Source of the DNA: Deltaproteobacteria bacterium | GTDB lineage: Bacteria; Desulfobacterota; Binatia; HRBIN30; CADEER01 | Direction of reading: 5' to 3' | Assembly: GCA_029262455.1 (NCBI GenBank) | Contig: JAJCZJ010000020.1 | Location: 325,078 to 389,077 of the forward strand | Length of the DNA: 64,000 bases | Notes under the pieces: model-generated | Database searches by the model: none | What the model was told of the DNA's origin: nothing | The model's input: only the letters and a program-made list of their open reading frames with translations | Position numbers and translations under genes: made by a program | Shown here: in pieces, positions 32,612 through 49,114 of the stretch | Position numbering within the stretch: the stretch's first letter is position 1 | How the letters are laid out: the number at the start of each line of letters is the position of its first letter

Positions 32612-33976
32612 ATGTCGTCAGGAAACAGCGTAGAAACGCCGCCTACCAACTCTGGAGACTCCCCACGAGCACGGGGTGCGGCGGCTCGGCGGGTACGTCC
32701 GCGGCAGCGGGGCGGGCTCGAGACTTTCGAAGTACACAACGAAATCGTCGTGCTTCCCGGCGAGGGGGACCGCGTTTACGCGCTGAACGAGTCCGGTAAG
32801 GAGATCTTCGGCCTCTGCGACGGTCGCCACACCCTAGAGGCAATGGTCGACCAACTGGCGTCGAGGTACGACGCGCCTGACGTCGCGATCATGGGCGACG
32901 TGTCCGCAGCGATATTCGACCTCCACGGCCTCGGGCTGGTCGATATTCCTCCACCGGCTGACGCAGCTGCATCGATCGAGCCGCAGACCTCGGTCAAGGC
33001 ACGACCCAACGTGCGTTTCGTCTTCGGCATAGAGGACGTGCCCTATTTCCACTGGCAGCTTGCCATCCTCTTCGAGTCGCTCGTCGGCCAATTGCCCGAC
33101 GGTTGGGACGTCACCGTCGTCGTTTGCAACGACGAAGCACCGATTTCCGACGAGCTCATGAAGATCGTTTCCGAGTACGGTGTTCGCATCATGACCGGCA
33201 CCAGTCTCGCCGATCGCCACAGTCTCGACTTCGCCGGCGGCGGTGATCGCTACGTTCCGATGAACCGAGTCGAAGCACTCAGCGTCATTCGGCAAATCGT
33301 CGAACCCGAAGACGTCGTTTGCCTTCTGGACACCGACGTCTTCCTGTACGGCAACCTTCAAGAACAACTCTTCCCGACCGGCAACGCAATGGCCCGCAAC
33401 TGGATCATCTCCGAAGATCGGTACTTCGCGTTCTCGACCAACAACGAACGAGGACTGTCGCTCCCGAAGCTGCTCGAAGCCCTGGGGTGCGAGCAGGAGT
33501 TCAAACCCGGTGGCGTAGCGGTCTTCTTGACGGGAGAGACGATCCAACGCGAGCGCGTCATCCCCGACATTTTCCGTTTCCTTCAGGTTCTGTTCCTGCT
33601 CGGGAAAATCGTCGACGCACCAGCGCACGGCGTTTGGGTCGCCGAAATGGCATGCTTCGCAATGGCCATGTACCCCAACGAAATCGACTACGAGCTTCTC
33701 GACATCCCGCAATTCGCCGTCCAGGAGCAGCATGCTGAAGTCGCCCCCGACGGTTCGTTCTTCCACTACTACACCGACATCAACGACGGCGGGGGATCAA
33801 ATGGTCCGTTTTTCGAATCGCAGTGGCATAAACAGTTATTTCACCAGTCCAACATGCTCCTCGAAGACTTCGACAGCTTCAGAGTGAACGCCAAAGGCCG
33901 CCTCGAGCAGCGCTTCTTCGAAATCGCCGACAAGGCGAGAAAGCGCCTTTACGGCATCGAACGCACGGGCAAGTAG
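32612..33976 (+). CDS. PqqD-like (RRE) domain fused to a DxD-containing putative glycosyltransferase domain
   Basis: Residues ~36-112 (FEVHNEIVVLPGEGDRVYALNESGKEIFGLCDGRHTLEAMVDQLASRYDAPDVAIMGDVSAAIFDLHGLGLVD) match the PqqD/RiPP-recognition-element pattern (LNETA..IWELCDG..T..EI...L...Y......DV..FL..L...GLI). The C-terminal domain has DTD and acidic motifs. Confidence 0.5.
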   Translation: MSSGNSVETPPTNSGDSPRARGAAARRVRPRQRGGLETFEVHNEIVVLPGEGDRVYALNESGKEIFGLCDGRHTLEAMVDQLASRYDAPDVAIMGDVSAAIFDLHGLGLVDIPPPADAAASIEPQTSVKARPNVRFVFGIEDVPYFHWQLAILFESLVGQLPDGWDVTVVVCNDEAPISDELMKIVSEYGVRIMTGTSLADRHSLDFAGGGDRYVPMNRVEALSVIRQIVEPEDVVCLLDTDVFLYGNLQEQLFPTGNAMARNWIISEDRYFAFSTNNERGLSLPKLLEALGCEQEFKPGGVAVFLTGETIQRERVIPDIFRFLQVLFLLGKIVDAPAHGVWVAEMACFAMAMYPNEIDYELLDIPQFAVQEQHAEVAPDGSFFHYYTDINDGGGSNGPFFESQWHKQLFHQSNMLLEDFDSFRVNAKGRLEQRFFEIADKARKRLYGIERTGK

Positions 33977-33980
33977 AGCC

Positions 33981-36644: not shown

Positions 36645-37630
36645 CAGACCAAGCAACCGCACCGCGCCAGATCGACATCCGCATCTCCACCATCGGCGGG
36701 CACGAGTATCGGTTGAATCTCCGCGAAGACGCCGTCCATTTGCGCGACCTCTTTACTCGATTCGTCAACCGACCGGCGACTGGGGCTGTCCGAGCTCCTG
36801 AATTCATCCAACTGCCCCTCGACGGAGGCAACGCTTCCTGCACGATCGCCGTCGATCAGATTGTGTCGATCGTCACCACGCCACCAGTCGTCATCGAAGT
36901 GCAACAACCCGCCGTCGAGCCAAACGTAATTCCAGATGTGCCGGCAGTGGTCGCGCCACCCCAGATCCGGCGCGCACACTACACGGTGATCGACGACTTT
37001 CTCACCGTCGATGAGCACCGAGACATGCTGGCGTTGGCATTGAGCGAGAAGGACAGCTTCGAACCCGGTACGGTGCAGGGTGAACCGAGTCCACACCGAC
37101 GAAACAGCGTCATCATGAACTTCGCAGACTCGGCGCACGGAACACTGCTGACAAGTCGTCTGCTCGTTTGGTTTCCATTGATCGCAAAGGCGCTGAAGGA
37201 ACCACTGTTTCCGCTCAAGACGGTCGAGTCGCAACTGACCGCCGCCAACGACGGAGACTACTATAAGCCTCACCTCGATACCGACGGGAAGACCCCCGAT
37301 TTCCGGGTCATCGCGTGCGTCTACTATTTCTTCCGCGAGCCAAAAGGGTTCACGGGCGGCGACCTACGCCTCTATGATTCCATCGAAACAGGTGGCGAAA
37401 TCTGTCAGGCGGATTCCTTCCAAGACATTCGGCCGGCAAGCAATCGCTTGGTCGCATTCACCTGCGAGACCTTCCACGAGCTGCTCGCGACTCGCTGCCC
37501 GTCCAAGGATATCGAAGACAGTCGTTTTGCGGTGACCGCGTGGTTTCACCGCAGCGGCGCACCGGACCCCGACGCCAAGTTCGGTTGGGGACATTATCGT
37601 TGCGGCGAAGTTCCGGAGGCACTGCGGTGA
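36641..37630 (+). CDS. Novel ~80-aa N-terminal domain fused to a prolyl-4-hydroxylase-like 2OG-Fe(II) oxygenase
   Basis: C-terminal domain has YYKPHLDTD (HxD), GGDLRLY, NRLVAF..ETFHEL (second His) and RFAVTAWF (2OG-binding Arg), which is the P4H pattern. The N-terminus IDIRISTIGGHEYRLNL...LRDL...QLPLDGGNASCTIAVDQIVSIVTTPP is paralogous to the N-terminus of the 29406 protein. ATGA overlap with the upstream gene. Confidence 0.6.
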   Translation: MTDQATAPRQIDIRISTIGGHEYRLNLREDAVHLRDLFTRFVNRPATGAVRAPEFIQLPLDGGNASCTIAVDQIVSIVTTPPVVIEVQQPAVEPNVIPDVPAVVAPPQIRRAHYTVIDDFLTVDEHRDMLALALSEKDSFEPGTVQGEPSPHRRNSVIMNFADSAHGTLLTSRLLVWFPLIAKALKEPLFPLKTVESQLTAANDGDYYKPHLDTDGKTPDFRVIACVYYFFREPKGFTGGDLRLYDSIETGGEICQADSFQDIRPASNRLVAFTCETFHELLATRCPSKDIEDSRFAVTAWFHRSGAPDPDAKFGWGHYRCGEVPEALR

Positions 37631-37802: not shown

Positions 37803-38930
37803 ATGATCTTCACGGTTTTCGTCGCACCGGTCGAACCAACGCAACAGTGGCGTGCCGATCTCCTCGAATACTCATGGCGACGCATCAAGCAGAGCGGCGA
37901 ACTGATCCGGCTGGCGCCAACCGCCCCCGGACGCGCACCAGGTAGCAGAGGGAGAGTCGGGAGAACCGTCAAAACGTTCGACTGGAACCCCCACCCGTAC
38001 ACCCAGGACGTGTACGCCGGCTATCAGACAACCGCCGGCGTACTCGAGTGGTTGTTCAACGAGCCGGCCGAAGGAACAGTCCTTTTGCTGGATTCGAGCT
38101 GCATCCTACGCCACCCGGTTACAGCAGAGGTCGAACCAGGCCACGTGCGCGGGTCGTCGTGGCCGGAGATCCCACTTGGCACGGACGGCCCATTCGGCCT
38201 GCATGATGATCTGAAGTTTCTCGAATCCTATTGCGTCAACCGCAAGCTCCCCCTCGCTCCCGTGCGGATGCCGATTTTGATCCACACGGCGGACCTGCGA
38301 AAAATCGCGGCGCGCTGGCTCGAGCTTACGGCGTTGATTCGATCCCATGCCGTAGGCGTTCACGGAAAATACCTTCATGCAGATCGCGTCGCCTACACCG
38401 TCGCCGCCGCCGAATACCGCATCCTCCACACCCTTGACGACCTCGGCACTACGACGTCGGATACCGGCAAAGACGTTCCGATCGTCGACTACAGCACACC
38501 GATCAAGTCCAAACAGGGAGAGATCGTCTGGGACCGAAAGGTCTATCGACCATGGGAGGCAGTCTACACCGAAAATGCGCGCGCAGGCGCAGGCAGAGAC
38601 GTACTCGGGATCCTGAACGAGATGGTGACGCGCCGCGAATCGGGAGCCGAGCTTGCGGCAACACGTCCACAGCGGTGCTACGGGGTGCGGGAAGCACGAA
38701 TTCTCGACGACATTCATCTCGAAGTACCTGGGTGTGCCGACTTGATGTCGCTGAATCAATCCGCGGCTGCCATCTGGGAGCTGTGCAACGGCGAGAACAC
38801 ACTCGCCGAGATCGTCAGCGAGCTCGAGAGACAATTCGACGCGTCACGCGAAACCCTCATGACATCCGTCGAATCGACGGCGAGGGATTTGGAAAGCTCA
38901 GGTGCCATCGAGCTGGAGGAGCTGTTCTGA
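37803..38930 (+). CDS. Unassigned N-terminal (possibly glycosyltransferase) domain with C-terminal PqqD-like (RRE) domain
   Basis: C-terminal 83 aa ILDDIHLEVPGCADLMSLNQSAAAIWELCNGENTLAEIVSELERQFDASRETLMTSVESTARDLESSGAIELEE match the PqqD pattern. N-terminal ~290 aa begin MIFTVFVAPVEPTQQWRADLLEYSWRRIKQSG. Confidence 0.5.
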   Translation: MIFTVFVAPVEPTQQWRADLLEYSWRRIKQSGELIRLAPTAPGRAPGSRGRVGRTVKTFDWNPHPYTQDVYAGYQTTAGVLEWLFNEPAEGTVLLLDSSCILRHPVTAEVEPGHVRGSSWPEIPLGTDGPFGLHDDLKFLESYCVNRKLPLAPVRMPILIHTADLRKIAARWLELTALIRSHAVGVHGKYLHADRVAYTVAAAEYRILHTLDDLGTTTSDTGKDVPIVDYSTPIKSKQGEIVWDRKVYRPWEAVYTENARAGAGRDVLGILNEMVTRRESGAELAATRPQRCYGVREARILDDIHLEVPGCADLMSLNQSAAAIWELCNGENTLAEIVSELERQFDASRETLMTSVESTARDLESSGAIELEELF

Positions 38931-40156
38931 TGGCATCCAAAGCAAAACCAAGCGCCAAAAAGTCCGTGCCGACCACAAAAACAAAGCACGCAGCAAAACG
39001 TGCCAAAGCCTCGGCCAAGAAAACAGCCAAAGCGCCGCCCGGAAAAGCCACGACAGCACGGGCGAAGAAGACCACCAAGACTCCGGCCTCCAAGAGCCCC
39101 AAAACCCGGACCCAAAGGACCCGGGCCCAAAAGCCCCGGGCCCGCAAAGCCGCGCTCAAAGTATCGCAAACGGTGTCGCCCAAAGGATCGCAAACGACTT
39201 CGAAGACGGAGCGAACGACCCCATCGCCTCGCGCAAAGTCGCGGCAGGCCACAAAACAACCCCAGATCTTCGTGTCGATCGCCTCCTACCGCGACCAGTT
39301 TCTTCACTTCACCATCGAGTCGGTGCTCAAACAGGCGACGTACCCAGAACGGTTGACCTTCGGCCTCTGCTGGCAAGCCGACGACACCGAGCAACTCGAT
39401 CAATACCTGCACGATCCGCGTTTCCGCATTCGCAAGTACCCGTACTACGCGAGCCTCGGCTACGGTTGGGCAAGAGCCGAGATCCAAAAACTATACGCCG
39501 GCGAAGAGTACCATCTACTGATCGATTCTCACACGTATCTCGCCAAGGGGTGGGACGAGAATCTGATCGCGCAACTCGAGAGCAAGCCGGGCGAGAAGCC
39601 GCTACTGACGACCAGCTCACCCCCTTTCACCTTCGACAATGACGGCAACGTCGTAATCCCGTGGCAAGGGACCGAACACGACGGCGTGCCGCTGATGAAG
39701 TGCGCACGAATCCAACCGGCAGGGTGGGTCGACATCCAGATGTCCAATGAGCGCAAGTCCACCAAACATCAAACCACCGGATTGGTGTGCTGTAACTTTG
39801 TCTTCACGCACGGGGCTTGGATCCGCGAAGTGCCCGAGGATCCGGCGATGATCAACGCCGGCCACGAGTCAGCCCTTTCGGTTCGTACCTTCACCCACGG
39901 ATACGACATCTACCTGCCCGACGAAATTCAAATCTGGCACCTCGACTACAACAACTACCCGAACGGTGAGCGCAACAAGGTATGGGAAGCAAAGTCCGAC
40001 AGTTGGCAGTCTGAGGGCACCGAGATCATGCTGCGGCGGCTGCAAGCGCTGTTCTACAACCGCGGCGACCGCGCCTCGCTCGGCCGCTACGGACTCGGTC
40101 GATCCCGCACCGTAGCCGACTGGGCGGAGATCACCGGACTCGACCTCAGTGACTGA
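38930..40156 (+). CDS. GT60-like (Glyco_transf_GlcNAc / Skp1-Hyp and mucin-Thr GlcNAc-transferase family) enzyme with ~110-aa Lys/Ala/Thr-rich histone-H1-like N-terminal tail
   Basis: ATG overlaps the upstream stop (TGATG). Tail MASKAKPSAKKSVPTTKTKHAAKRAKASAKKTAKAPPGK... Catalytic region starts IFVSIASYRDQFLHFTIESVLKQATYPERLTFGLCWQADD, which I recognise as the N-terminal signature of the GT60 family from memory (needs HMM confirmation). Paralogous to 46893..47900. Confidence 0.45.
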   Translation: MASKAKPSAKKSVPTTKTKHAAKRAKASAKKTAKAPPGKATTARAKKTTKTPASKSPKTRTQRTRAQKPRARKAALKVSQTVSPKGSQTTSKTERTTPSPRAKSRQATKQPQIFVSIASYRDQFLHFTIESVLKQATYPERLTFGLCWQADDTEQLDQYLHDPRFRIRKYPYYASLGYGWARAEIQKLYAGEEYHLLIDSHTYLAKGWDENLIAQLESKPGEKPLLTTSSPPFTFDNDGNVVIPWQGTEHDGVPLMKCARIQPAGWVDIQMSNERKSTKHQTTGLVCCNFVFTHGAWIREVPEDPAMINAGHESALSVRTFTHGYDIYLPDEIQIWHLDYNNYPNGERNKVWEAKSDSWQSEGTEIMLRRLQALFYNRGDRASLGRYGLGRSRTVADWAEITGLDLSD

Positions 40157-41942
40157 CGTCGACTCCGCACTACTGCCAATTCCCCAACCCGAGTGGCGTG
40201 CTTCTTTATCCGGCGACGGCGCGGCAGTTGATGTCCTGATTTTAAGCAAGGACCGCGCCTGCCAACTCGACGGACTGCTGCGCACGATGCGCGCGTTCCT
40301 GACCATCCCACACCGGAAATACGTACTGTACAAGACGTCTAATTTGGCGTTCGAGCGCGGCTACGACATGCTCCGCCGGTGGAATCCCGAGGTCGAGTTC
40401 ATCGACGAGGCGCAAACGTTTCGACAATGCTACCTCGACCTCGTGGCAAGGATCGCCGCCGGGCCTGGTCGCTACTGGATGCCGGTGATGGACGACATGA
40501 TCTTCACTCGCACGTTCACCGCACAGCCACTCATCGACCTCCTCGACACAGACGAGGACGTGCTGGCGATCTCTCTGCGCCTCGGCGAGAACATTACCTA
40601 TTGCTACACCCGAAACGCTCCAACCACACCTCCGGACTTCAGCAACGGACACCGTTGGGAATGGAGAACAGCCAGCCCAGGCTACTGGAACTATCCAATG
40701 TCCGTCGACGCCAACATCTACCGCACGGCGGAAATGGCCGAATACATCCCGACCCTCCAATTCGGCAAGGCTGAAGTCATCGAGGCACGCATGGCCGGGG
40801 TGCCCTTGAACCGCCCCCATATGCTGTGTGAACCGACCCCCAGCGTACTCAATCTCGCGATCAACCGCGTTCAACACACCTTCAAGAATCGGCACGGCAC
40901 AATCACGCCAGAAGCCCTGAACGGCGCTTTCCTCGCGGGTTTCGCGATGGATGTGCGCCCGTTGCTGGGTCGAACCTTCAACGCCTGTCACGTCGAGGTC
41001 GAGCTGTCCTTGGTCCCCGATGCGCGCGAGCGCCCCGGCGCAACGCCCCTCTCTTCGACCGGCTGGAAACCACAGCGAAACGGCGCCGTCGTCGTGACCG
41101 AGAGCCATGCTGTCGTGACGCTCAAGAGGAACGGAACGAAGCTCAAACTCAATCAGAGCGCCGAAGAGATCTGGAAACTGTGCGACGGAACACGAACGCC
41201 CGAGGACATCCAAAACGAGCTCGCGCAACATTTTGACGCAACCCCGCGCCAGCTTCACAGCGGCGTACGAAGCGCCCTGGCGAATTTCATCAATCACGGC
41301 CTTCTCCGTCAGGAACGCCCGGAAGGCGCATACCGCCGCATCGACCTGCGCCAGATTCCCTGCTTCGTGATCAATTGCGAAGCCGATGCTGAGAAGGACA
41401 CGTTGATGAAGCGTCAGCTCGCTGAGCTCGGGATACCGTACGAACGTGTACCCGGGATCGCCGCAAGCCCGGATTGGGTCGGCGTCGCGCTGTCGCACCT
41501 CAAAGTGCTTCGCCTGACCCGCTCGACGACACCCTTCCTGGTGCTCGAGGACGATTGCTTGTTCAACGACCGCTTCCAACCAGTGTGGCAAGTACCGGTC
41601 GAGGCCGACGCCCTGTATCTCGGCGTTTCCGAGTTCGGCCTCGAGACCCCCGGTCACTTCAGCTGGGGCCGCCGGCGCAAGAACCAATGGAGACCCTACG
41701 ACCGGTCCTTCCTCCGCATTTTCAACATGCTCGCACGCCATGCGGTCGTGTACCTTTCCAACGACTACTGCGAGCAAGTCATCCAATCGCAAATCGAAGC
41801 ACTGACGAATCGAAGTTTGCCGTACCCTGGGGACATCGGCTGCGCGATGCTGCAAGCATCGCACGTCGTCCTGACCCCGAACGAACCGATCTGCCGGCAA
41901 ACCGGTCGTGACTCGACCGTGCGTCCGTTGCCGGAGCTCTGA
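40149..41942 (+). CDS. Three-domain enzyme: GT-A (GT2-like) domain - PqqD-like (RRE) domain - GT25 family glycosyltransferase domain
   Basis: GTG start overlapping the upstream stop. N-terminal VDVLILSKDRACQLDGLLRTM and a DDM motif (GT-A). Residues ~312-388 VVTLKRNGTKLKLNQSAEEIWKLCDGTRTPEDIQNELAQHFDATPRQLHSGVRSALANFINHGLL (PqqD-like). C-terminal CFVINCEADAEKDTLMKRQLAELGIPYERVPGI matches the GT25 N-terminal motif (LPS GT25 / collagen Hyl-galactosyltransferase family). Confidence 0.5.
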   Translation: MTDVDSALLPIPQPEWRASLSGDGAAVDVLILSKDRACQLDGLLRTMRAFLTIPHRKYVLYKTSNLAFERGYDMLRRWNPEVEFIDEAQTFRQCYLDLVARIAAGPGRYWMPVMDDMIFTRTFTAQPLIDLLDTDEDVLAISLRLGENITYCYTRNAPTTPPDFSNGHRWEWRTASPGYWNYPMSVDANIYRTAEMAEYIPTLQFGKAEVIEARMAGVPLNRPHMLCEPTPSVLNLAINRVQHTFKNRHGTITPEALNGAFLAGFAMDVRPLLGRTFNACHVEVELSLVPDARERPGATPLSSTGWKPQRNGAVVVTESHAVVTLKRNGTKLKLNQSAEEIWKLCDGTRTPEDIQNELAQHFDATPRQLHSGVRSALANFINHGLLRQERPEGAYRRIDLRQIPCFVINCEADAEKDTLMKRQLAELGIPYERVPGIAASPDWVGVALSHLKVLRLTRSTTPFLVLEDDCLFNDRFQPVWQVPVEADALYLGVSEFGLETPGHFSWGRRRKNQWRPYDRSFLRIFNMLARHAVVYLSNDYCEQVIQSQIEALTNRSLPYPGDIGCAMLQASHVVLTPNEPICRQTGRDSTVRPLPEL

Positions 41943-41977: not shown

Positions 41978-44900
41978 GTGAAAAAGGGCACAATCCACGA
42001 TCTCTTCTCCCGCACCGCTTGCGTCGTGTCCGACAGGCACCGATTCATCTATTTGACGGCGCAAAACGCCACGTCTTCCCTGAAGGCCGAGCTGTCGAAC
42101 GAGCACTGCGGCGGCGTTGTCCTCGCCCGCGCACAGGTGGCTGATAAACTCTGGAACCAATACTTTACGTTCGCCTTCCTGCGCGACCCGCTGACGCGCT
42201 TTCTCTCCGCCTATCAGGAAGTGTCTCTGCACATGGAGCGTGACAAACTCGAACCGCGCCCTTTCGGCCGGATGCCCGACGGCCTCGATCGCTTTCAGGC
42301 ATTTCTCGCGGACGTCGAGCAGAACGGTCCGTGGAACGAGCACATTGCACTCCAGCTAGCCTTCGTCGAGCGCCGAAGAATCGACTTTTGGGGGCTCGTC
42401 GAAACGCTGCAAGACGACTTCCAACAAATCTACACCCGGCTGGGATTGGGGACCTGTCCCGTTCTGCCAAAACGCCGCTCTCGCAGCGGCCGTGAGGAAA
42501 AGGACGGCATCTCGCGCTTCGCCTTCCATCCGGAGGACCTCGATGCGACGACAATTGAGCGCATCTACGACCTCTACCGTGAGGACGTCTTGCTGATTCG
42601 AGCGGTTCGCCCCGACGCACCTGAAATGCAGCCGCACTCAACCCGTGCCGCACCGCCCCCCGGAATGGTGCAGGTGGCGATCGCCCTGGCCAACGGCGGC
42701 GAATACTCCCTCGAACTTCCGCCCGGCCAACCAGAGCTGGGCGCTCTGCAAGCTGTGGTATCACCACAACAATCCGATGGACGTTTTCTCGGCCCGCAAG
42801 TTCTGCAGGTTCCACTGCGTGGTGGCAATTCCGCGCTGACGTTTTCCACGCAGCACCTCGTTCGTCTCGAGCTACGCCCCCCCGACGCCCGAGAACTGCG
42901 CCGAATCGAGGCGCCGGCCACCGGCACGGGCAACTCCGGAGTGAATCTAATAAACGTCGGGAACAAGCGGCCGCCAACCGAGGACCCATCGAGCAATATC
43001 GACGAGGCGCATCTCGGTGGCTACATTCGTGCGGCCAATACACCGATTCTCCACAGCGCCGCAGGCCCACACGGGGACCGGGGAACCTGGAATCCGCTGC
43101 TGTGGCGTTGGGCAATCGAAGATCTCGACGTGCGATCAGTGATCGATATCGGATGCGGCGAGGGACACGCCGCCGGATTTTTCTCCGACGGCGGGTGTGA
43201 AGTGCTCGCGCTCGATGGCAGCCTTCAAGCGCGCTATTCCAGCGTTGTTCCAGATCGCCACGTCGTACACGACTTCGTCGAGGGACCTTTCGTCCCAGAG
43301 AAAAGCTTCGACATGGCCTGGACCTGCGAGTTCGTCGAACACGTCGAGGCGCGTTTTCTCCACAATTTCCTGGCTACGATCGCATCGAGCCGCAAGTACG
43401 TGATGATGACGTTCGCCAGCCCGACACAAACAGGCTGGCATCACGTCAATTGCCAAGAACAGGGTTACTGGGTCGATCAGTTGGGACGCCTCGGGTTTCG
43501 CCTGGACGACGATCTAACCGAGAGAGGCCGAGCCTTGGCTCACTCTCATTTTCGCGAACGTGGCCTGGTCTTCGTCCGGCACCATCGAAAAGGCGAGTCA
43601 TCGAAGTCCACAGAACCGTCGCTGCGCGCGACTGCCGAGAGTCACTGTCTCGACCCGCTGCCGGTCCAATCCATGCAGGTCGCACAGCGCGAGAGCGATG
43701 CCTTCTACCTGTTTGTCGACATCTTCGTGCATCCGACCGCACCGAGAATCGTGGCGATCTCACCACCCTATGGCGAAGACTGGAATCCTAACGTTGTCGG
43801 CATCGACTACGATGCCGTCGACCTTGTATTCGGTGACATACGCGTCCGCGGCCGCTGCCTGCGGCACCGTCTCGACTCCTGGGAGCCTTGCATGCTTCTC
43901 GAGTTCGAGGACGAAGACCTAACAGAGCGCATTCGGGCCAACGACGAGATCAACGTCACGATCGAGGCCGGCTCGCATTCGTCGTCCTTCGTCCTGACGA
44001 CCCGCCCAGCGCCAGCCTACGATGTCGCAATGAGCCTCGTCGTACGCAACGAAAACCGCTGGATCCGCACGTTTCTCGACTACTACCTCGACTGCGTCAA
44101 AGCCGACCACGTCTTCATCTACGACAACGGAACGTCGGAACAAGACCAGCTGCTTTCCATTCTTCACCCGTACCGAGAGCGCGGGCAAGTGACGTACATC
44201 CCGTGGGATTTTCGCTGGCGCAACCGCATCGACCGCAAGATGATCGGCCAACCGACACAGGAGGCTCACTCCCTTGCAAGATTCGCAAACACCGGGTGGA
44301 TCGGCTTTCTCGACATCGACGAGTTCCTGCGCTTGCCGCACAGCACCCTGCCACAATTTCTCGCTCGCTTCGCGTCCGCGGAGGTCGACGGACTCTCGTT
44401 CGGTATCCGGTGGTTTTCTTACGAGGGCCCGCTTGCACTCGATGAGATTACGAGTGTGCCACTGCAATTCCTCCACTCGCGCCGCAATGAGCTCGGCCGA
44501 AAACGGCAGAAGTTCTTCGTCAAAGGCGGCGGCTCGAAGTTTCTTCGCTTGCATTGGCTCGAAGACGGAGGTCGCGAACTGCCCATCGACGACACCGAGA
44601 TCTACTTTCACCACTACGATCAACGTCCCGGCCGTTTCGAAGAAGGAAAGCAAATCGGAGGAGCGCGCGACGAATACATGCTGCGCTTCGCCGACCAGCT
44701 CTCGCGCCCCGAGCGGCACAGAGCCCCTCTAACCGAGAGAGGATGGATCACCCACATCAACTCTTCGATCGAACGCGCCGAACGCGACACCTCCAAACTC
44801 ACCCCGGAAGTCCTCGCCGTCGACGGCATGTGCGGGCGCTACACCCGTCACTTCTACAACAACCTCTGCAGCTTCGGAGGATGCCGCTACCTCGAGATCG

Positions 44901-45385
44901 GCAGCTATCACGGGGCCAGCACCTGCGCGGCAATCTTCGGCAACGACGTATCCGCCGTGTGCATCGACAATTGGACACAGTTTCACGGCAAGCGAAGCCG
45001 CTTCGAGGATGCCCTACGACGCTTCCGAGGAGATCGCTCGGTCCGAGTCATCGAGCAAAACTGCTTCGAAGTAGACGCCTCAAGCCTCGGCCCATTCGAC
45101 ATCTATCTCTACGATGGCGACCACAGCCAGCAGAACCAGTACCGAGCCTTGCAGCACTTCGTTCAGACGCTGGCCAAGCTCGCCGTAGTCGTCATCGACG
45201 ACTGGAATCGTCGGCATATCCGTCGGGGGACACAGGACGCGATTCGGGACCTCGAACTCGATGTAATCTTCGACCGAGAGATCCTACTGCCAACCGACCA
45301 GACGGCGGATGAAAACCGTGACGCTGGAGCGCGAACTTGGTGGAACGGACTCTACATCATGCTCGTTCGCAGTAGAACGCAGTAG
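41978..45385 (+). CDS. 1135-aa five-domain enzyme: sulfotransferase (Sulfotransfer_2-like) - novel ~80-aa domain - class I SAM methyltransferase - GT-A glycosyltransferase (DIDEFL) - TylF/CmcI-like O-methyltransferase
   Basis: GTG start. Five domains are visible:
- (1) 5'-PSB-like RFIYLTAQNATSSLKAEL and 3'-PB FLRDPLTRFLSAY, carbohydrate sulfotransferase motifs.
- (2) MVQVAIALANGGEYSLELP...LQVPLRGGNSALTFSTQHLVRLELRPP, homologous to the N-termini of the 29406 and 36641 proteins.
- (3) RSVIDIGCGEGHAAGFFSDGGCEVLALD, methyltransferase motif I.
- (4) HVFIYDNGTSEQ...GWIGFLDIDEFL, GT-A DxD.
- (5) FDIYLYDGDHS, Methyltransf_24 (TylF/MycF-like) motif. Confidence 0.55.
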   Translation: MKKGTIHDLFSRTACVVSDRHRFIYLTAQNATSSLKAELSNEHCGGVVLARAQVADKLWNQYFTFAFLRDPLTRFLSAYQEVSLHMERDKLEPRPFGRMPDGLDRFQAFLADVEQNGPWNEHIALQLAFVERRRIDFWGLVETLQDDFQQIYTRLGLGTCPVLPKRRSRSGREEKDGISRFAFHPEDLDATTIERIYDLYREDVLLIRAVRPDAPEMQPHSTRAAPPPGMVQVAIALANGGEYSLELPPGQPELGALQAVVSPQQSDGRFLGPQVLQVPLRGGNSALTFSTQHLVRLELRPPDARELRRIEAPATGTGNSGVNLINVGNKRPPTEDPSSNIDEAHLGGYIRAANTPILHSAAGPHGDRGTWNPLLWRWAIEDLDVRSVIDIGCGEGHAAGFFSDGGCEVLALDGSLQARYSSVVPDRHVVHDFVEGPFVPEKSFDMAWTCEFVEHVEARFLHNFLATIASSRKYVMMTFASPTQTGWHHVNCQEQGYWVDQLGRLGFRLDDDLTERGRALAHSHFRERGLVFVRHHRKGESSKSTEPSLRATAESHCLDPLPVQSMQVAQRESDAFYLFVDIFVHPTAPRIVAISPPYGEDWNPNVVGIDYDAVDLVFGDIRVRGRCLRHRLDSWEPCMLLEFEDEDLTERIRANDEINVTIEAGSHSSSFVLTTRPAPAYDVAMSLVVRNENRWIRTFLDYYLDCVKADHVFIYDNGTSEQDQLLSILHPYRERGQVTYIPWDFRWRNRIDRKMIGQPTQEAHSLARFANTGWIGFLDIDEFLRLPHSTLPQFLARFASAEVDGLSFGIRWFSYEGPLALDEITSVPLQFLHSRRNELGRKRQKFFVKGGGSKFLRLHWLEDGGRELPIDDTEIYFHHYDQRPGRFEEGKQIGGARDEYMLRFADQLSRPERHRAPLTERGWITHINSSIERAERDTSKLTPEVLAVDGMCGRYTRHFYNNLCSFGGCRYLEIGSYHGASTCAAIFGNDVSAVCIDNWTQFHGKRSRFEDALRRFRGDRSVRVIEQNCFEVDASSLGPFDIYLYDGDHSQQNQYRALQHFVQTLAKLAVVVIDDWNRRHIRRGTQDAIRDLELDVIFDREILLPTDQTADENRDAGARTWWNGLYIMLVRSRTQ

Positions 45386-45412: not shown

Positions 45413-45892
45413 TTACTCCTCGCCCTTGGTTTCTTTTCCCACGGGAGCCGGTCGGCCCTCGTCGTCATCCGAAGCAATGAGCTTTTTAGCACCGAAGCCA
45501 AAGAGCGCCGCTGCGGCCACAGCCGCGGCGCCGCCTGAAACCACAGGCGCATCGACTGCTGCCTGAAAGGCGGTCGGAACCGCCGTACTGGGAAGGCCCG
45601 GATCGAGGACCGTCGGGACCTGCGTCGGTGCGGCAGTAGGATTGAGGCAAAGTGACGGCGAATTGGTACATTGCGTCGTCCCAGCTTCGACAGGCGCGAC
45701 GAATCCAAGATCAGACGAGACCGGTACCGATAAGATCACCGGCGTTACCCAGGCAATCTTGAGCGCCGAGCGCCTTGAAATATCGTCGGAAAAAGTCGGC
45801 CGCGCCGCCTTCCCGTCCGTCACCAGCTCGCCCCGCAGCCGCTCGATCTCCTCGAGAAGCTCCTTTTTCGTCTTCGTTCCGTCACCCGCCAT
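45413..45892 (-). CDS. Small exported Pro/Thr/Ser/Ala-rich protein, paralog B (coiled-coil N-region plus SRRSALK Tat-like motif, C-terminal hydrophobic segment)
   Basis: Internal Met of ORF 45413..45997, preceded by gagggtc. MAGDGTKTKKELLEEIERLRGELVTDGK...DISRRSALKIAWVTPVILSVPVSS, then a PT-rich region with two Cys, then AAAVAAAALFGFGAKKLIASDDDEG. Confidence 0.5.
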   Translation of the reverse strand: MAGDGTKTKKELLEEIERLRGELVTDGKAARPTFSDDISRRSALKIAWVTPVILSVPVSSDLGFVAPVEAGTTQCTNSPSLCLNPTAAPTQVPTVLDPGLPSTAVPTAFQAAVDAPVVSGGAAAVAAAALFGFGAKKLIASDDDEGRPAPVGKETKGEE

Positions 45893-46048
45893 TATAGACC
45901 CTCTCCAATGCTGCCGCTGCCATAGCAAGAATCCGACCCAAATCCCAGGCCTGCGACATCGATTTCCTGGATTCGCGGTGAGACACCCCCTGCGCACTCG
46001 TAGCAGCGGCTCGGCAGCCTATCCCGATCAAGTGGGAGAATGGGCGTG

Positions 46049-46744
46049 TCATCCCACCCCGCAGACCTCCCGACCCGTGGCTTCACGATAGTAGGACACA
46101 TCCTCGGCGCAAATGCGCAAAGCCAGTTCTCGCGTCTCCCCATCATAGAAAAGCTCCGGAACCGGCATCCCGTGCCGGCGAAGCCAGCCCGGGGAACGAT
46201 CTGTCGCGCGCTCTCGAATCGTCACGTCCTGCGGCGAAGGATTCTCGTGCAGGACCGGCGCGGAAACCGAAACTCTCTCGTTTAAGCTCGCCAGCCCCCG
46301 CGAGAGATCTTCCACCGCAACGACTTCGTCGAAGTCTATCTGATGCGTGTTTCGGACCTGCGGCACCAAATGGTGCTGGGGTTCGATCCCGCGGGTCTGA
46401 ACATGCTGCAAGGTGTAGAGGAACTTGCGAAAGCTCTTGTCCCGCAGCGAGAGCTTCCGGTCATCGTCGGCAAAGCACCACAACGTTTCATCGCGCACGA
46501 CCCACAAGGTGTAGAACCCGACGAGTCGGCGAAGCGGATCGCGCACAAAGAAGACCTTCCAATAGTCACGACAGCGGTCGATGTCGCCGTGCCAAATCAG
46601 GAAAGCGTCAAGGTCTTCGACCGGTTGCTTCGTCTTCTCCTCAATCGCTGCCTTGCACCACGATCGGATGCTGTTCGAACCACACTTGGGACTATAGACG
46701 GCAAGTACTTCGAGTGGATCCGCGGCTAGGAAGAAGTGGGCCAT
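46049..46744 (-). CDS. Carbohydrate sulfotransferase-like protein (Sulfotransfer_2/3 family); possible N-terminal extension through the heptad repeat to a GTG at 46900
   Basis: From MAHFFLAADPLEVLAVYSPKCGSNSIRSW (5'-PSB PKCGS) and FFVRDPLRRLVGFY (3'-PB). The ORF-track version starts at a GTG at 46898-46900, 5 nt upstream of the preceding gene's stop, which is a coupling-type overlap. That start would add (T-S-H-E-S-P-V)n repeats to the N-terminus. Confidence 0.5.
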   Translation of the reverse strand: MAHFFLAADPLEVLAVYSPKCGSNSIRSWCKAAIEEKTKQPVEDLDAFLIWHGDIDRCRDYWKVFFVRDPLRRLVGFYTLWVVRDETLWCFADDDRKLSLRDKSFRKFLYTLQHVQTRGIEPQHHLVPQVRNTHQIDFDEVVAVEDLSRGLASLNERVSVSAPVLHENPSPQDVTIRERATDRSPGWLRRHGMPVPELFYDGETRELALRICAEDVSYYREATGREVCGVG

Positions 46745-46892: not shown

Positions 46893-47900
46893 CTACACAC
46901 CGGCGCCGGCCTGGTACTCTTCGAAAGTGACGCAGCTCTCCCAGTCGGACGGCGACCGGATTGTCACTGGGTCGGGGTTCGCGCCACTAAACGCATCCGG
47001 ATGCGCGCGTTTGGCTCGGAAGTCAAAGCCCGAAAAAATCTCGTAGTCCCGCAAGGTCCGCACCCGACCGAAACCGTACGGTCCGGGCAGCGGTGATTCA
47101 TAGCTCGAGAGCAGCTGTTCCAAACGGGCAAACGCCTCGCGGTTGCGGCGCTCGACGACGTCTTCCCCCTGCTCCCAATGGCGCCGCGGCGGCCCGTCGT
47201 TGTGCTGCATGTGCCATGCCACGACTTCCGTTGGAAGAAAGAAGTCGTACCCCCAGGTGTACGAACGAATGGTCACATTCAGCTCTTCGCCCCAATAGTA
47301 TTGTCCGGGATCCTGCGGCACCTCGACATTCCAGATGCCGCGCGAGAACGCGAAGTTGCCGTTGACAAACCGTGTACGCCCCGGCTTCTTGACGTTGGGG
47401 GCTCCAAAGTCGAACCACGGCGCCCAATGGTCCGACGCGCTCCAGCCGCTCACCTTGGTCGTCGGCACACCCATTTCAGTACGACGCTGCGGCACACCAT
47501 CCTCGTCGTACCAGAATAGGGGAGCATTCATGCTGAGAACGGGTTTCTCACTGGGGAGAGCCTCCAGCATCTCGATCAGCCGCGCGTCCCAGTCGGGCTC
47601 GAGCTTCATATGGGAATCGATCTGCAGAGTGTAGGGTTCACCTCGCCACAGAGACTGCGCAATATTACGCGCCCAGGGGCCGCCCTGGCTTGCCGCAATC
47701 GTCGTATCCACAAACCGAAACCGCGGATCTCGGCGAAAATCCTCCAACGGCACCGGCGCTTTTGGGTCACGCTGCCAGCAAATTCCGAAACGCAGCGAAT
47801 CTGGAGCACTTGCCGTTTCGATCGCGTCACGCAAGGTGCGCGGCAACTCGGGGTCCGTGTACGACGCGATCGCGACGAAGATCTGAGGGTGGGAAGCCAC
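46893..47900 (-). CDS. GT60-like (Glyco_transf_GlcNAc family) glycosyltransferase, paralog of 38930..40156 without basic tail
   Basis: GTG start (MASHPQIFVAIASYTDPELPRTLRDAIETASAPDSLRFGICWQRD). Collinear similarity with the 38930 protein (IFV[AS]IASY.D, [IL]CWQ, DSH, W...E, WH). Confidence 0.45.
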   Translation of the reverse strand: MASHPQIFVAIASYTDPELPRTLRDAIETASAPDSLRFGICWQRDPKAPVPLEDFRRDPRFRFVDTTIAASQGGPWARNIAQSLWRGEPYTLQIDSHMKLEPDWDARLIEMLEALPSEKPVLSMNAPLFWYDEDGVPQRRTEMGVPTTKVSGWSASDHWAPWFDFGAPNVKKPGRTRFVNGNFAFSRGIWNVEVPQDPGQYYWGEELNVTIRSYTWGYDFFLPTEVVAWHMQHNDGPPRRHWEQGEDVVERRNREAFARLEQLLSSYESPLPGPYGFGRVRTLRDYEIFSGFDFRAKRAHPDAFSGANPDPVTIRSPSDWESCVTFEEYQAGAGV

Positions 47901-48115: not shown

Positions 48116-49114
48116 TCAGACCTTGTGGGCGAGCCCCTTTTCCCGCGCCGTGTACTGATCGAAGATCCAGGCGTAGGTTTTCTCGATACCGTCGCGCAAT
48201 GAAGTAGACGGAGCCCAACCGAGCTTCTCAATGATCATCGTGTTGTCGCTGCTCCGCCCGTCGACACCCTTCGGAGCATCCAGTTTATAGGTTCGCTCGA
48301 GCCGAATTCCGGCAATCTCTTCGACGACATCGACCAGATCATTGATGGACACTGTCTCACTTGAGCCGAGATTGATCGGGTCCGAGACACTGCTCTCCAT
48401 CAGCCGACGAATTCCCTCGATGCAGTCATCGATGTACGTAAACGAGCGACCCTGGTTTCCATCGCCCCAGATTTCAATGCGATGATCGCCGCGGACTTTT
48501 GCTTCGATCACCTTTCGACAGATCGCCGCGGGTGCCTTCTCGCGACCACCGTCCCAGGTCCCATGAGGCCCATACACATTGTGGAAGCGAGCCACTCGCG
48601 TCCGCATCCCAAAGTCCTCCATGAAATGGCGGCACATACGCTCGGAGAACAGCTTCTCCCACCCGTACCCATCTTCCGGCATCGCCGGGTACACGTCGTC
48701 CTCTTTCAAGGGAGTGACATCATAGCCACGTTGCTTGTCCGCCCTGTATACGCATGCCGACGACGCGTAGAAAAAGCTCTCGGTGCCGCACACATTCGCA
48801 GCTTCCAACAGATGGGTATTGATCAAGACGTTGAGCATGCACAGAGCCTTGTTGCTCTCGATGAAGCCCATGCCGCCCATATCACAGGCCATCTGGTACA
48901 CGACTCCGACCCCCTCGCAGACATCCATGCACGGACTCCGCAACCGCAGATCCAGCTGCCGATTGTCGACGTCGTCGAAGCACTGGTACCACTCTTCGAT
49001 CGGTTTGAGATCGACCGCGCGTAGGTTGGGCTCACCACGCTGGCGCAAGTCGGCAACAATCTGCCCCCCGATAAACCCGCCCGCGCCTGTGACTAGAACA
49101 GTAGAAGCAACCAT
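48116..49114 (-). CDS. gme: GDP-mannose 3,5-epimerase (plant GME-type extended SDR; produces GDP-L-galactose/GDP-L-gulose)
   Basis: 332 aa. Collinear matches to plant GME as I recall it: TGAGGFIG, MACDMGGMGFIESN (AADMGGMGFIQSN), FFYASSACVY, GYGWEKL, FHNVYGPHGTWDGGREKAPAAICRK (FHNIYGPFGTWKGGREKAPAAFCRK), SDNTMIIEKLGWAP (SDNNLIKEKLGWAP). Confidence 0.75.
   Translation of the reverse strand: MVASTVLVTGAGGFIGGQIVADLRQRGEPNLRAVDLKPIEEWYQCFDDVDNRQLDLRLRSPCMDVCEGVGVVYQMACDMGGMGFIESNKALCMLNVLINTHLLEAANVCGTESFFYASSACVYRADKQRGYDVTPLKEDDVYPAMPEDGYGWEKLFSERMCRHFMEDFGMRTRVARFHNVYGPHGTWDGGREKAPAAICRKVIEAKVRGDHRIEIWGDGNQGRSFTYIDDCIEGIRRLMESSVSDPINLGSSETVSINDLVDVVEEIAGIRLERTYKLDAPKGVDGRSSDNTMIIEKLGWAPSTSLRDGIEKTYAWIFDQYTAREKGLAHKV

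What the first reader, a model, noticed from the sequence alone, without database searches (positions are those of the whole stretch)
48116..49114. Plant-type GDP-mannose 3,5-epimerase (GDP-L-galactose/GDP-L-gulose producer) adjacent to the modification island
The ORF is collinear with plant GME in all conserved blocks (MGGMGFI.SN, FFYASSAC[IV]Y, YG[LW]EKL, FHN[IV]YGP.GTW.GGREKAPAA.CRK, SDN..I.EKLGWAP). GME is the first committed step of plant ascorbate and L-galactose metabolism and is uncommon in bacteria.

Its position next to GT77-like and fucosyltransferase-superfamily genes fits known chemistry: L-Gal is a 6-hydroxy analogue of L-Fuc and is accepted by some fucosyltransferases. This suggests that L-galactose or L-gulose is incorporated into the glycan made by the island.
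Basis: partly seen in the sequence, partly recalled or inferred. Interest (0 to 1): 0.6.

Follow-up and report, generated by a model that had tools for sequence, protein, structure and literature searches.

The report
Bacterial GDP-mannose 3,5-epimerase beside glycosylation island
This gene encodes a GDP-mannose 3,5-epimerase, the enzyme that makes activated L-galactose and L-gulose; the family is common in environmental bacteria rather than rare, but this copy stays attached to a conserved gene island that appears to hydroxylate, glycosylate, sulfate and methylate proline/threonine-rich proteins, which suggests a physiological role that can be tested.

Summary
The ORF is real (48116-49114, minus strand, 332 aa) and belongs to the GDP-mannose 3,5-epimerase (GM35E/GME) family. 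It matches plant GME crystal structures over its full length (E about 1e-93, 47% identity). The next family, GDP-fucose synthase, scores only 1e-26. All 11 published diagnostic residues are present, including the Lys base and Arg that separate GM35E from GDP-fucose synthase. A tree groups it with GMEs in 100/100 bootstraps.

"Uncommon in bacteria" is wrong. At least 596 species-representative genomes from many phyla carry close homologues, and a bacterial GM35E (Methylacidiphilum) has already been characterised. As an enzyme, this is a new member of a known kind.

The link to the island holds better than adjacency alone would suggest. In five of the nine nearest GME homologues examined (75-81% identical), the gene again sits beside island genes, although the outer flanks differ and the gene order is rearranged. 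The island holds fucosyltransferase-superfamily glycosyltransferases, a GT77-like enzyme, GT60-like enzymes, a prolyl-hydroxylase-like oxygenase, PqqD-domain proteins, sulfotransferases and Pro/Thr-rich candidate substrate proteins.

Transfer of L-galactose or L-gulose into the island's glycan is plausible but untested. Islands without GME also exist.

The parts
48116..49114 (-). GDP-mannose 3,5-epimerase (GM35E/GME), 332 aa. Key residues: GxxGxxG at G10/G13/G16; S119/Y150/K154 triad; C121 acid; K193 base; N179; R223; R287.
46893..47900 (-). PF11397 'GlcNAc' (Gnt1/GT60-like) glycosyltransferase, the next gene downstream of GME on the same strand after a 215-bp gap. Orthologues 75-79% identical lie near GME in L084, L087, L089 and L091.
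46049..46744 (-). Sulfotransfer_2-family sulfotransferase. The probable start is the ATG at 46744; the mechanical ORF extends to 46900 through a tandem repeat. It is 55% identical to the genes that follow the GT60-like gene in L087 and L091.
45413..45895 (-). Pro/Thr/Ala-rich protein and candidate glycosylation substrate, last gene of the GME-side minus-strand block. It has a conserved N-terminal leader (KTKKELLEEIERLRGEL ... SRRSALKIAWVTPVILSVP) and a C-terminal hydrophobic anchor.
41978..45385 (+). 1135-aa multidomain protein: sulfotransferase, methyltransferase, GT92/GT2-like domain and Methyltransf_24. It is conserved (59-67% identity) beside GME in L084, L087, L089 and L091.
40149..41942 (+). 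Protein with a PqqD (RRE-like) domain and a weak GT25-like region. It is 61% identical to its L089 orthologue.
38990..40156 (+). Second PF11397 (GT60-like) glycosyltransferase with a Lys/Ala-rich N-terminus. The mechanical ORF from 38552 is probably over-extended.
37803..38930 (+). 375-aa protein with a C-terminal PqqD domain.
36641..37630 (+). 2OG-Fe(II) oxygenase (PF13640). Its only PDB sequence match is a prolyl 4-hydroxylase alpha subunit (6t8m, E=4e-5).
34641..36644 (+). 667-aa fucosyltransferase-superfamily protein (O-FucT-like). It has an invariant H199-x-R201-R202-G-D-F motif, and its predicted N-terminal fold matches POFUT2, FUT8, AtFUT1, POFUT1 and NodZ. Candidate user of a GDP-L-sugar.
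32612..33976 (+). 454-aa protein with an N-terminal PqqD domain; an island core gene, 56-61% identical to the L092 and L093 orthologues.
31963..32469 (+). Second Pro/Thr/Ser-rich protein (46% P+T+S; SPT/PTxSPT repeats) with the same conserved leader, directly upstream of the PqqD gene. Candidate substrate.
29367..30590 (+). GT77-like (PF03407 Nucleotid_trans) glycosyltransferase, 55% identical to genes near GME in L087 and L091.
24158..24916 (-). GT11-family (alpha-1,2-fucosyltransferase-like) protein with an HVRRGDY motif. Candidate user of a GDP-L-sugar.

Best explanation
The gene encodes an active, NAD+-dependent GDP-mannose 3,5-epimerase.

Mechanism, inferred from the Arabidopsis and Methylacidiphilum enzymes:
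- The Ser119/Tyr150/Lys154 triad transiently oxidises C4 of GDP-D-mannose.
- Cys121 (acid, made more acidic by Arg287) and Lys193 (base) then invert C5 and C3.
- C4 is reduced back, which releases GDP-L-galactose with GDP-L-gulose as the C5-only by-product.

Proposed role (second tier, inferred): the gene is the nucleotide-sugar supply module of the adjacent conserved island. One of the island's fucosyltransferase-superfamily glycosyltransferases would transfer the L-hexose. Candidates are the 667-aa O-FucT-like protein or the GT11-like protein in this window, and a GT10+GT61 fusion in relatives. The acceptor would be a glycan built on the island's Pro/Thr-rich leader-bearing proteins, which are also targets for prolyl hydroxylation, GT60/GT77-type glycosylation, sulfation and methylation.

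My probabilities: GM35E family membership about 0.95; GDP-Man to GDP-L-Gal/L-Gul activity about 0.85; product used by the island about 0.55.
For: Enzyme identity:
- Full-length match to plant GME structures at E=1.8e-93, against 1.2e-26 for the next family.
- 47% identity to AtGME over 314 residues, with all 11 diagnostic residues conserved: G10/G13/G16, S119, C121, Y150, K154, N179, K193, R223, R287.
- K193 and R287 are His and Lys in E. coli Fcl. Both positions are invariant in the 199 bacterial homologues aligned. This is the discrimination rule given in PMC8787198.
- A neighbour-joining tree places the query inside a bacterial GME clade sister to plant GME. Fcl, Gmd and GalE are excluded in 100/100 bootstraps.

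Link to the island:
- In five of the nine nearest homologue contigs examined (L084, L087, L089, L091, L096; GME 75-81% identical across the nine), GME lies within 10 kb of orthologues of island genes, or directly beside a GT10+GT61 protein. The genes on the outer side differ in every case and the gene order is rearranged.
- None of 80 more distant GME loci carries island genes. The association is therefore specific to this subclade.
- The only nucleotide-sugar-modifying gene detected in the 64-kb window is GME, apart from an unrelated NmrA-like SDR. The window also holds two fucosyltransferase-superfamily proteins with the HxRRGD GDP-sugar motif.
- FUT8, AtFucTA and AtFUT1 accept GDP-L-Gal (PMC8787198).
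Against: - No enzyme assay or glycan analysis exists.
- No single glycosyltransferase co-varies with GME across the genomes examined. The GT10+GT61 protein beside GME in relatives is absent from this window.
- The O-FucT-like gene also occurs in islands that lack GME within 10 kb: L092 (Luminiphilus, which carries a UXS-like SDR instead) and L093.
- Two close homologues (L085, L094) sit in a different cluster with a flavin monooxygenase, a 2OG oxygenase, a GT2 and an ABC transporter.
- GDP-fucose synthesis genes could lie elsewhere in the genome. I could not read the rest of the 410-kb contig.
- A 215-bp gap separates GME from the next gene, and no promoter or terminator signal resolved the operon structure.
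Confidence: 0.6

Rival explanations
1. The enzyme is a true GME, but it supplies GDP-L-Gal/L-Gul for a general envelope polysaccharide (LPS O-antigen, capsule or EPS). It would sit at the island's edge only through shared ancestry of related genomes, without feeding the island's glycan.
For: - The 80 more distant bacterial GME loci have no island genes.
- LPS is the role proposed for MfGM35E (PMC6678494).
- GME always lies at the boundary of the island, not inside it.
- Islands exist without GME.
- Three YfhO-like membrane proteins, of the kind linked to envelope glycosylation, lie in the same window.
Against: GME stays attached to island genes in five related contigs although the outer flanks are entirely different and the gene order is rearranged. 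In L089 and L096 it directly abuts a protein containing a fucosyltransferase-like (GT10) domain.
Confidence: 0.25
2. The protein is a GME-fold enzyme with a shifted outcome. It might be effectively a C5-only epimerase that supplies GDP-L-gulose, as proposed for BlmG in bleomycin biosynthesis, or it might act on a different GDP-hexose or GDP-heptose.
For: [quoted passage not shown]
- BlmG, 42% identical to AtGME, is assigned to L-gulose supply.
- Sequence cannot predict the product ratio or which product the downstream glycosyltransferase draws off.
Against: The complete catalytic set for both epimerisations is conserved. There is no sequence sign of an altered substrate pocket at 47% identity to AtGME, although the pocket was not examined residue by residue.
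Confidence: 0.12
3. The protein is a GDP-L-fucose synthase (GMER/WcaG/Fcl) or another extended SDR (GalE, Gmd, UXS), misread as a GME.
For: The best NCBIfam hit is the Fcl model, but at 113 bits against a 500-bit cut-off. NCBI names homologues only as 'NAD-dependent epimerase/dehydratase family protein'.
Against: - There is a 220-bit gap between GME and Fcl in the PDB search.
- The base is Lys, not His, and the Cys-acidifying residue is Arg, not Lys.
- 100/100 bootstraps separate the GME clade from Fcl, Gmd and GalE.
Confidence: 0.02
4. The gene is the first step of a plant-like L-galactose (Smirnoff-Wheeler) route to ascorbate in this bacterium.
For: GME is the entry enzyme of that pathway in plants.
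Against: None of the window ORFs scanned against Pfam matched a family expected for a GDP-L-Gal phosphorylase, L-Gal-1-P phosphatase, L-Gal dehydrogenase or galactonolactone dehydrogenase. The neighbours are instead glycosyltransferases, sulfotransferases and methyltransferases.
Confidence: 0.01

Closest known systems
Arabidopsis thaliana GDP-mannose 3,5-epimerase (AtGM35E/GME; PDB 2C54, 2C59, 2C5A, 2C5E) and the plant GME of PDB 8SG0
   Same: Full-length collinear alignment at 47% identity. The catalytic triad, the Cys/Lys acid-base pair, Arg306, Arg243 and Asn203 equivalents are identical.
   Different: - The query lacks the roughly 25-residue N-terminal and 30-residue C-terminal extensions of the plant enzymes (332 aa against 377 aa).
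- It has a canonical GxxGxxG where AtGME has GxxGxxA.
- It belongs to a separate bacterial clade.
- Its genomic context is glycan synthesis, not ascorbate synthesis.
Methylacidiphilum fumariolicum SolV GM35E (MfGM35E, UniProt I0K0X9), the only biochemically characterised bacterial GME (PMC6678494)
   Same: A bacterial GM35E of similar size with the same conserved catalytic residues, also located next to a glycosyltransferase and a methyltransferase.
   Different: I could not retrieve its sequence, so identity to the query is not measured. MfGM35E is thermostable and was tentatively linked to LPS. The query is linked to a PqqD / 2OG-oxygenase / GT60 / sulfotransferase island.
BlmG (bleomycin cluster) and the GME step of the A201A pathway in actinomycetes
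   Same: GME homologues that serve as dedicated L-gulose or L-galactose donor suppliers inside a biosynthetic gene cluster. This is the same logic proposed here.
   Different: Those clusters make small-molecule antibiotics. Here the likely acceptor is a glycan on ribosomally made Pro/Thr-rich proteins.
GDP-L-fucose synthase (GMER / WcaG / Fcl)
   Same: An extended SDR that also performs 3,5-epimerisation of a GDP-sugar with a catalytic Cys. It is the nearest other family by sequence (E=1e-26).
   Different: Fcl uses a His base and a Lys as the Cys-acidifying residue, needs the 4-keto-6-deoxy substrate and uses NADPH. The query has Lys and Arg at those positions.
Eukaryotic hydroxyproline glycosylation systems: the Skp1 pathway (PhyA prolyl hydroxylase, Gnt1/GT60, GT77 AgtA) and plant extensin/AGP glycosylation (P4H, GT77 RRA/XEG113). 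This comparison applies to the island, not to GME itself.
   Same: The island combines a P4H-like 2OG oxygenase, PF11397 (Gnt1-family) glycosyltransferases, a GT77-like enzyme and fucosyltransferase-superfamily enzymes with Pro/Thr/Ser-rich proteins.
   Different: The system is bacterial and has PqqD (RRE-like) domains on several proteins, sulfotransferases and methyltransferases. No hydroxyproline or glycan has been demonstrated. The resemblance to the eukaryotic pathways rests partly on my own knowledge of them.

Membership tests
GDP-mannose 3,5-epimerase (GM35E; CEP1 family, extended SDR) | N-terminal Rossmann glycine motif GxxGxxG/A for NAD+ binding | tested here: met
   G10, G13 and G16 align with At G34, G37 and A40. 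The Pfam Epimerase domain PF01370 matches at E=4e-37.
GDP-mannose 3,5-epimerase (GM35E; CEP1 family, extended SDR) | Catalytic triad [ST]xnYxxxK (At S143, Y174, K178) | tested here: met
   S119, Y150 and K154 are present. Y and K are invariant, and the Ser position is S or T, in 199 bacterial homologues.
GDP-mannose 3,5-epimerase (GM35E; CEP1 family, extended SDR) | Cys acid and Lys base for the C5/C3 epimerisations (At C145, K217). The Lys, rather than a His, distinguishes GM35E from GMER (PMC8787198). | tested here: met
   C121 and K193 are present. E. coli Fcl has His at the base position.
GDP-mannose 3,5-epimerase (GM35E; CEP1 family, extended SDR) | Arg that acidifies the catalytic Cys (At R306; Lys in GMER) | tested here: met
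   R287 is present. Fcl has Lys, Gmd has Leu and GalE has Tyr at this column.
GDP-mannose 3,5-epimerase (GM35E; CEP1 family, extended SDR) | Diphosphate-binding Arg (At R243) and conserved Asn (At N203) | tested here: met
   R223 and N179 are present. Both are also present in Fcl, Gmd and GalE, so they do not discriminate between families.
GDP-mannose 3,5-epimerase (GM35E; CEP1 family, extended SDR) | Phylogenetic placement with characterised GMEs, apart from GMER, GMD and GalE | tested here: met
   Neighbour-joining tree of 39 sequences and 332 columns: the GME clade has 100/100 bootstrap support. The bacterial sequences are monophyletic relative to two plant GMEs in 90/100. Only E. coli outgroups and two plant sequences were available.
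GDP-mannose 3,5-epimerase (GM35E; CEP1 family, extended SDR) | [quoted passage not shown] | not testable with these tools
   This needs a recombinant enzyme assay. It is inferred from AtGM35E and MfGM35E.
GDP-L-fucose synthase (GMER/Fcl) | His catalytic base and Lys as the Cys-acidifying residue; match to the NCBIfam GDPFucSynFcl equivalog above its cut-off | tested here: not met
   The query has Lys193 and Arg287 instead. It scores 113 bits on NF047922 against a cut-off of 500.
Fucosyltransferase superfamily (GT11, GT23, GT37, GT65, GT68), applied to the neighbour 34641-36644 | GT-B type fold with the HxRRxD GDP-fucose-binding motif | tested here: met
   H199-x-R201-R202-G203-D204-F205 is invariant in 32 homologues. 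The AF2 model has mean pLDDT 77. The top 50 Foldseek PDB matches are all POFUT2, FUT8, AtFUT1, POFUT1 or NodZ, with E from 1e-8 to 1e-5 but low TM-scores of 0.23-0.29 relative to the query. The Pfam O-FucT hit is below its cut-off for this copy (25.5 against 31.5 bits). That the motif binds GDP-fucose is from my own knowledge of the family.
Fucosyltransferase superfamily, donor specificity | Use of GDP-L-Gal or GDP-L-Gul rather than GDP-L-Fuc as donor | not testable with these tools
   The only support is the precedent of promiscuous fucosyltransferases (PMC8787198).

The most novel reading that the evidence does not exclude
The GME would be the dedicated L-hexose donor module of a previously undescribed bacterial pathway. 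Pro/Thr-rich proteins with a conserved leader, which includes a twin-arginine-like SRRxALK-hydrophobic motif, would be recognised through PqqD (RRE-like) domains. They would then be prolyl-hydroxylated, O-glycosylated in the cytoplasm by GT60-, GT77- and fucosyltransferase-type enzymes, and sulfated and methylated. This would be a bacterial counterpart of eukaryotic hydroxyproline-rich glycoprotein or Skp1-type glycosylation. It would give the first physiological role for a bacterial GME and the first bacterial glycoprotein carrying L-galactose or L-gulose.
Probability: 0.3. Interest if true: 0.7.

Novelty: new member of a known kind. Interest (0 to 1): 0.35.

Why it matters
As an enzyme, this gene adds little. 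GM35E is structurally and mechanistically understood, a bacterial example has been characterised, and homologues are abundant in soil, freshwater and marine bacteria.

Its value lies in the context. The physiological role of bacterial GMEs is still only guessed at, with LPS and antibiotics as the suggestions (PMC6678494, PMC8787198). Here one GME subclade is repeatedly attached to a conserved island with eukaryote-like components and with recognisable candidate substrate proteins. That gives a concrete, testable hypothesis for where bacterial L-galactose or L-gulose goes. It also points to natural transferases for GDP-L-Gal or GDP-L-Gul, which the glyco-engineering field is looking for.

The island core also occurs in the isolate Luminiphilus syltensis NOR5-1B, where a UXS-like gene takes the place of GME, and one island gene is found in Elongatibacter sediminis. 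Experiments on the island itself should therefore be feasible.

Tried and rejected
1. I searched all window proteins by tblastn against 80 distant GME loci, looking for a conserved GME neighbourhood. None co-occurred. The association appeared only in the subclade at 75% identity or above.
2. I tested whether the SDR in the Luminiphilus island was a GDP-fucose synthase, which would have supported an L-Fuc/L-Gal swap. It is UXS/ArnA-like (UDP-xylose synthase type) and only 24-26% identical to Fcl and GME. I dropped the idea.
3. I looked for one glycosyltransferase that co-varies with GME. The GT10+GT61 protein beside GME in L087, L089, L091 and L096 has no homologue in this window. The O-FucT-like gene is also present in islands without GME. 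No unique partner could be named.
4. Sequence searches of the GT60-like, O-FucT-like and GT11-like proteins against PDB found nothing. For the O-FucT-like protein, only the predicted fold was informative.
5. A promoter and terminator scan of 45300-49400 gave no signal above shuffled controls, so the operon structure is unresolved.
6. The exact-match look-up returned only a 3.9-kb Logan contig, not the 410-kb NCBI contig. I could not check for GMD, Fcl, ManB or ManC elsewhere in the genome, and I could not name the organism. The nearest named relatives of the island genes are Pseudomonadota/Gammaproteobacteria MAGs.
7. The first tree attempt with Biopython's distance calculator timed out. I reran it with a numpy distance matrix.
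8. Literature searches for a bacterial GT60/hydroxyproline system, and for post-2022 work on bacterial GM35E roles, returned nothing relevant.
9. I did not model the GME structure. At 47% identity to crystal structures with every catalytic residue conserved, a model would add nothing.
Full report
**Observation.** The window has an ATG-initiated ORF of 332 aa at 48116..49114 on the minus strand. The gene's GC3 (0.71) matches its neighbours, so it is native to this roughly 60% GC bacterial sequence.

**Family assignment.** Pfam places the protein in the NAD-dependent epimerase/dehydratase family (PF01370, E=4e-37). No NCBIfam equivalog passes its cut-off; the best, GDP-fucose synthase, scores 113 bits against a cut-off of 500. 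A phmmer search against all PDB sequences gives plant GDP-mannose 3,5-epimerases as the top five hits, with E from 1.8e-93 to 2e-91 over residues 6-326. GDP-L-fucose synthase follows at 1.2e-26.

**Diagnostic residues.** I mapped the alignment to Arabidopsis numbering. Identity is 47% over 314 aligned residues, and all 11 published diagnostic residues are conserved:
- the GxxGxxG motif (G10/G13/G16)
- S119, Y150 and K154 (At S143, Y174, K178)
- C121 and K193 (At C145, K217)
- N179, R223 and R287 (At N203, R243, R306)

The review by Beerens et al. (PMC8787198) gives the rule that separates GM35E from GDP-fucose synthase: a Lys base instead of His, and an Arg instead of Lys to acidify the catalytic Cys. 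In an alignment with E. coli Fcl, Gmd and GalE, the query and all 199 bacterial homologues have Lys and Arg at these columns, whereas Fcl has His and Lys.

**Phylogeny.** A neighbour-joining tree (39 sequences, 332 columns) nests the query in a bacterial clade sister to two plant GMEs. The whole GME clade excludes Fcl, Gmd and GalE in 100/100 bootstraps, and the bacterial sequences are monophyletic in 90/100. The protein is a GME.

**How common the family is.** The claim that GME is uncommon in bacteria does not hold.
The best 80 are 64-70% identical and come from Myxococcota, Acidobacteriota, Planctomycetota, Verrucomicrobiota, Alphaproteobacteria, Actinomycetota, Gemmatimonadota, Chloroflexota and others.
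- The 120 best clusters at 90% identity all score at least 529 bits, and JGI already labels many of them 'GDP-D-mannose 3',5'-epimerase'.
- An exhaustive search of cluster representatives at 50% identity finds 1068 with E<=1e-30.
- BlmG (bleomycin, L-gulose) and the A201A pathway (L-galactose) are further bacterial precedents.

As an enzyme this is a new member of a known kind. 'Plant-type' is a historical label, not a sign of gene transfer from plants.

**Immediate neighbourhood.** Downstream on the same strand lie, in order:
- a PF11397 'GlcNAc' (Gnt1/GT60-like) glycosyltransferase at 46893-47900
- a Sulfotransfer_2 sulfotransferase, with a probable ATG start at 46744
- a Pro/Thr/Ala-rich protein at 45413-45895

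Upstream and divergent is a TPR protein that is not conserved with the island.

**The rest of the island in the window.** The plus-strand block from 29.4 to 45.4 kb encodes:
- a GT77-like enzyme (29367-30590; PF03407)
- a second Pro/Thr/Ser-rich protein (31963-32469)
- three proteins containing PqqD domains
- a conserved 205-aa protein
- a 667-aa O-FucT-like protein
- a 2OG-Fe(II) oxygenase whose only PDB match is a prolyl 4-hydroxylase
- a second PF11397 glycosyltransferase
- a 1135-aa fusion of sulfotransferase, methyltransferase, GT92-like and methyltransferase domains

A GT11-family protein with an HVRRGDY motif lies at 24158-24916.

For the 667-aa protein, the HxRRGDF motif is invariant in 32 homologues. 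An AlphaFold model (mean pLDDT 77) matches only GDP-fucose fucosyltransferases among its top 50 PDB hits: POFUT2, FUT8, AtFUT1, POFUT1 and NodZ, with E from 1e-8 to 1e-5, though TM-scores are low.

**Is GME linked to the island or merely adjacent?** None of the window's neighbours occurs near GME in the 80 distant loci. The nine nearest GME homologues (75-81% identical) tell a different story.
- Five contigs place GME beside island genes. L084, L087, L089 and L091 carry orthologues of the GT60-like gene (75-79%), the sulfotransferase (55%), the large fusion protein (59-67%), the PqqD-GT25 protein and the second GT60-like gene (78-83%). L096 carries the GT10+GT61 gene directly beside GME.
- The contigs behind L087 and L091 also carry the O-FucT-like orthologue.
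- The genes on the outer side of GME differ in every genome: TPR, ferredoxin-like, GH4, luciferase-like and an unknown protein. The internal gene order is rearranged. GME therefore travels with the island.
- In L089 and L096, GME directly abuts a roughly 700-aa protein with a GT10 (fucosyltransferase) domain and a GT61 domain.
- Two sister genomes (L085, L094) instead place GME in a different cluster with a flavin monooxygenase, a 2OG oxygenase, a GT2 and an ABC transporter.
- Two contigs are too short to judge (L083, L095).

The island core also exists without GME. One case is the cultured gammaproteobacterium Luminiphilus syltensis NOR5-1B, where a UXS-like SDR occupies the accessory position. 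Another is a 12-Mb genome carrying GT10, FUT8-like and GT77 genes.

The simplest reading is a conserved core pathway with exchangeable nucleotide-sugar supply and decoration modules, of which GME is one.

**Mechanism proposed.**
- Shown by homology: NAD+-dependent C4 oxidation, Cys121/Lys193-mediated epimerisation at C5 and C3, and re-reduction. The products would be GDP-L-Gal plus GDP-L-Gul.
- Inferred: a fucosyltransferase-superfamily enzyme of the island transfers the L-hexose. FUT8, AtFucTA and AtFUT1 are documented to accept GDP-L-Gal (PMC8787198).
- Inferred: the acceptor is a glycan on the island's Pro/Thr-rich proteins. These proteins share a conserved leader across genomes and sit next to proteins containing PqqD domains.

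I could not identify which transferase is used, and I could not exclude GDP-fucose synthesis elsewhere in the genome.

**Verdict.** The enzyme assignment is supported at about 0.95. The rarity claim is refuted. The functional link to the island rests on conserved synteny and stands at about 0.55. The enzyme itself is ordinary. The interest lies in the island, which has eukaryote-like components and is apparently undescribed in the searched literature, and in the testable role it offers for bacterial L-galactose or L-gulose.

Noticed in passing
window 29367-47900 (core 32612-40156); L092 (Luminiphilus syltensis NOR5-1B, DS999411.1), L093 (OZ375331.1), L087, L089, L091: A conserved island core recurs in Gammaproteobacteria/Pseudomonadota, Acidobacteriota and Polyangia MAGs and in cultured isolates. 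Its order is: PqqD protein (about 450 aa), 205-aa protein, O-FucT-like protein (about 667 aa), P4H-like 2OG oxygenase, PqqD protein (about 375 aa), PF11397/GT60-like glycosyltransferase. Variable GT77, GT10, GT11, GT25, GT92, sulfotransferase and methyltransferase modules accompany it. I found no description of it in the searched literature.
   Followed up: partly
window 31963-32469 (+) and 45413-45895 (-); L089 13358-14020; L091 18346-19155; L092 11055-11429; L093 11759-12085: A family of Pro/Thr/Ser-rich proteins with SPT, PTxSPT or EPTRSPTQ repeats, up to 46% P+T+S. They share a conserved N-terminal leader (K-T-x-x-x-L-x-x-E-L-x-x-L-R, then SRRxALKxAWVxPVIL) that resembles a twin-arginine signal preceded by a short helix. 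Some members end in a hydrophobic anchor and an acidic tail. They are likely substrates of the island, possibly modified in the cytoplasm before export.
   Followed up: partly
window 29427-29636, 36662-36890, 42659-42883: A region of about 70-75 residues is shared between the start of the GT77-like protein, the start of the 2OG oxygenase and an internal part (about residue 230) of the 1135-aa fusion protein. I saw it as secondary tblastn hits at 35-44% identity. It may be a common docking or substrate-recognition module.
   Followed up: no
window 46760-46880: A perfect-register tandem repeat: a 7-bp unit GTGACTG in 17.3 copies, also readable as a 21-bp unit in 5.8 copies at 96% match. It lies between the stop of the GT60-like gene (46893) and the probable ATG of the sulfotransferase (46744). 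It is absent at the equivalent junction in L087, where the gap is 8 bp. It could be a slippage-prone, phase-variation-like tract affecting sulfotransferase expression.
   Followed up: partly
window 16733-24116: Three tandem paralogues of YfhO-like membrane proteins (707, 720 and 726 aa; PF09586) lie just upstream of the GT11-like gene. This suggests an additional membrane-associated glycosylation step or a separate envelope glycosylation system.
   Followed up: no
window 38552-40156 and 37803-38930: The mechanical 534-aa ORF for the second GT60-like gene is probably over-extended. It overlaps a real 375-aa PqqD-domain ORF (37803-38930). The likely product starts near 38990 with a Lys/Ala/Pro-rich, histone-H1-like low-complexity segment (MASKAKPSAKKSVPTTKTKHAAKRAKASAKK...).
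   Followed up: partly
window about 30700-31942 (+): A Cys-rich secreted or anchored protein with a weak disintegrin-like match, a PTPVPTPTPTPVP linker and a C-terminal transmembrane segment lies between the GT77-like gene and the first Pro/Thr-rich protein. The mechanical 618-aa ORF overlaps the GT77-like gene, so its true start is later.
   Followed up: no
L085 (ERZ27248688 k141_466972) and L094 (JAJCZP010000086.1): Two close GME homologues (77% identical) sit in a different conserved cluster. It holds a flavin monooxygenase, a small 2OG-Fe(II) oxygenase, a GT2, an ABC exporter and, in L085, an Asp/Arg hydroxylase and an Elm1-like protein. This may be a second hydroxylation-plus-glycosylation context for bacterial GME.
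   Followed up: no
one search hits P0124 (733 aa), P0137 (663 aa), P0173 (845 aa), P0163 (553 aa) and others: Some members of the GME family in the representative library are fused to additional domains, with lengths of 500-850 aa and the GME part at either the N- or the C-terminus. The fusion partners might reveal which transferases or pathways use GDP-L-Gal or GDP-L-Gul.
   Followed up: no
window 24941-27571 (-): An 876-aa protein with no Pfam match. Its C-terminal 500 residues or so are 57% identical to a 504-aa gene that directly abuts the GT60-like gene in L093. The island in this window therefore probably extends at least to the GT11-like gene at 24158.
   Followed up: no
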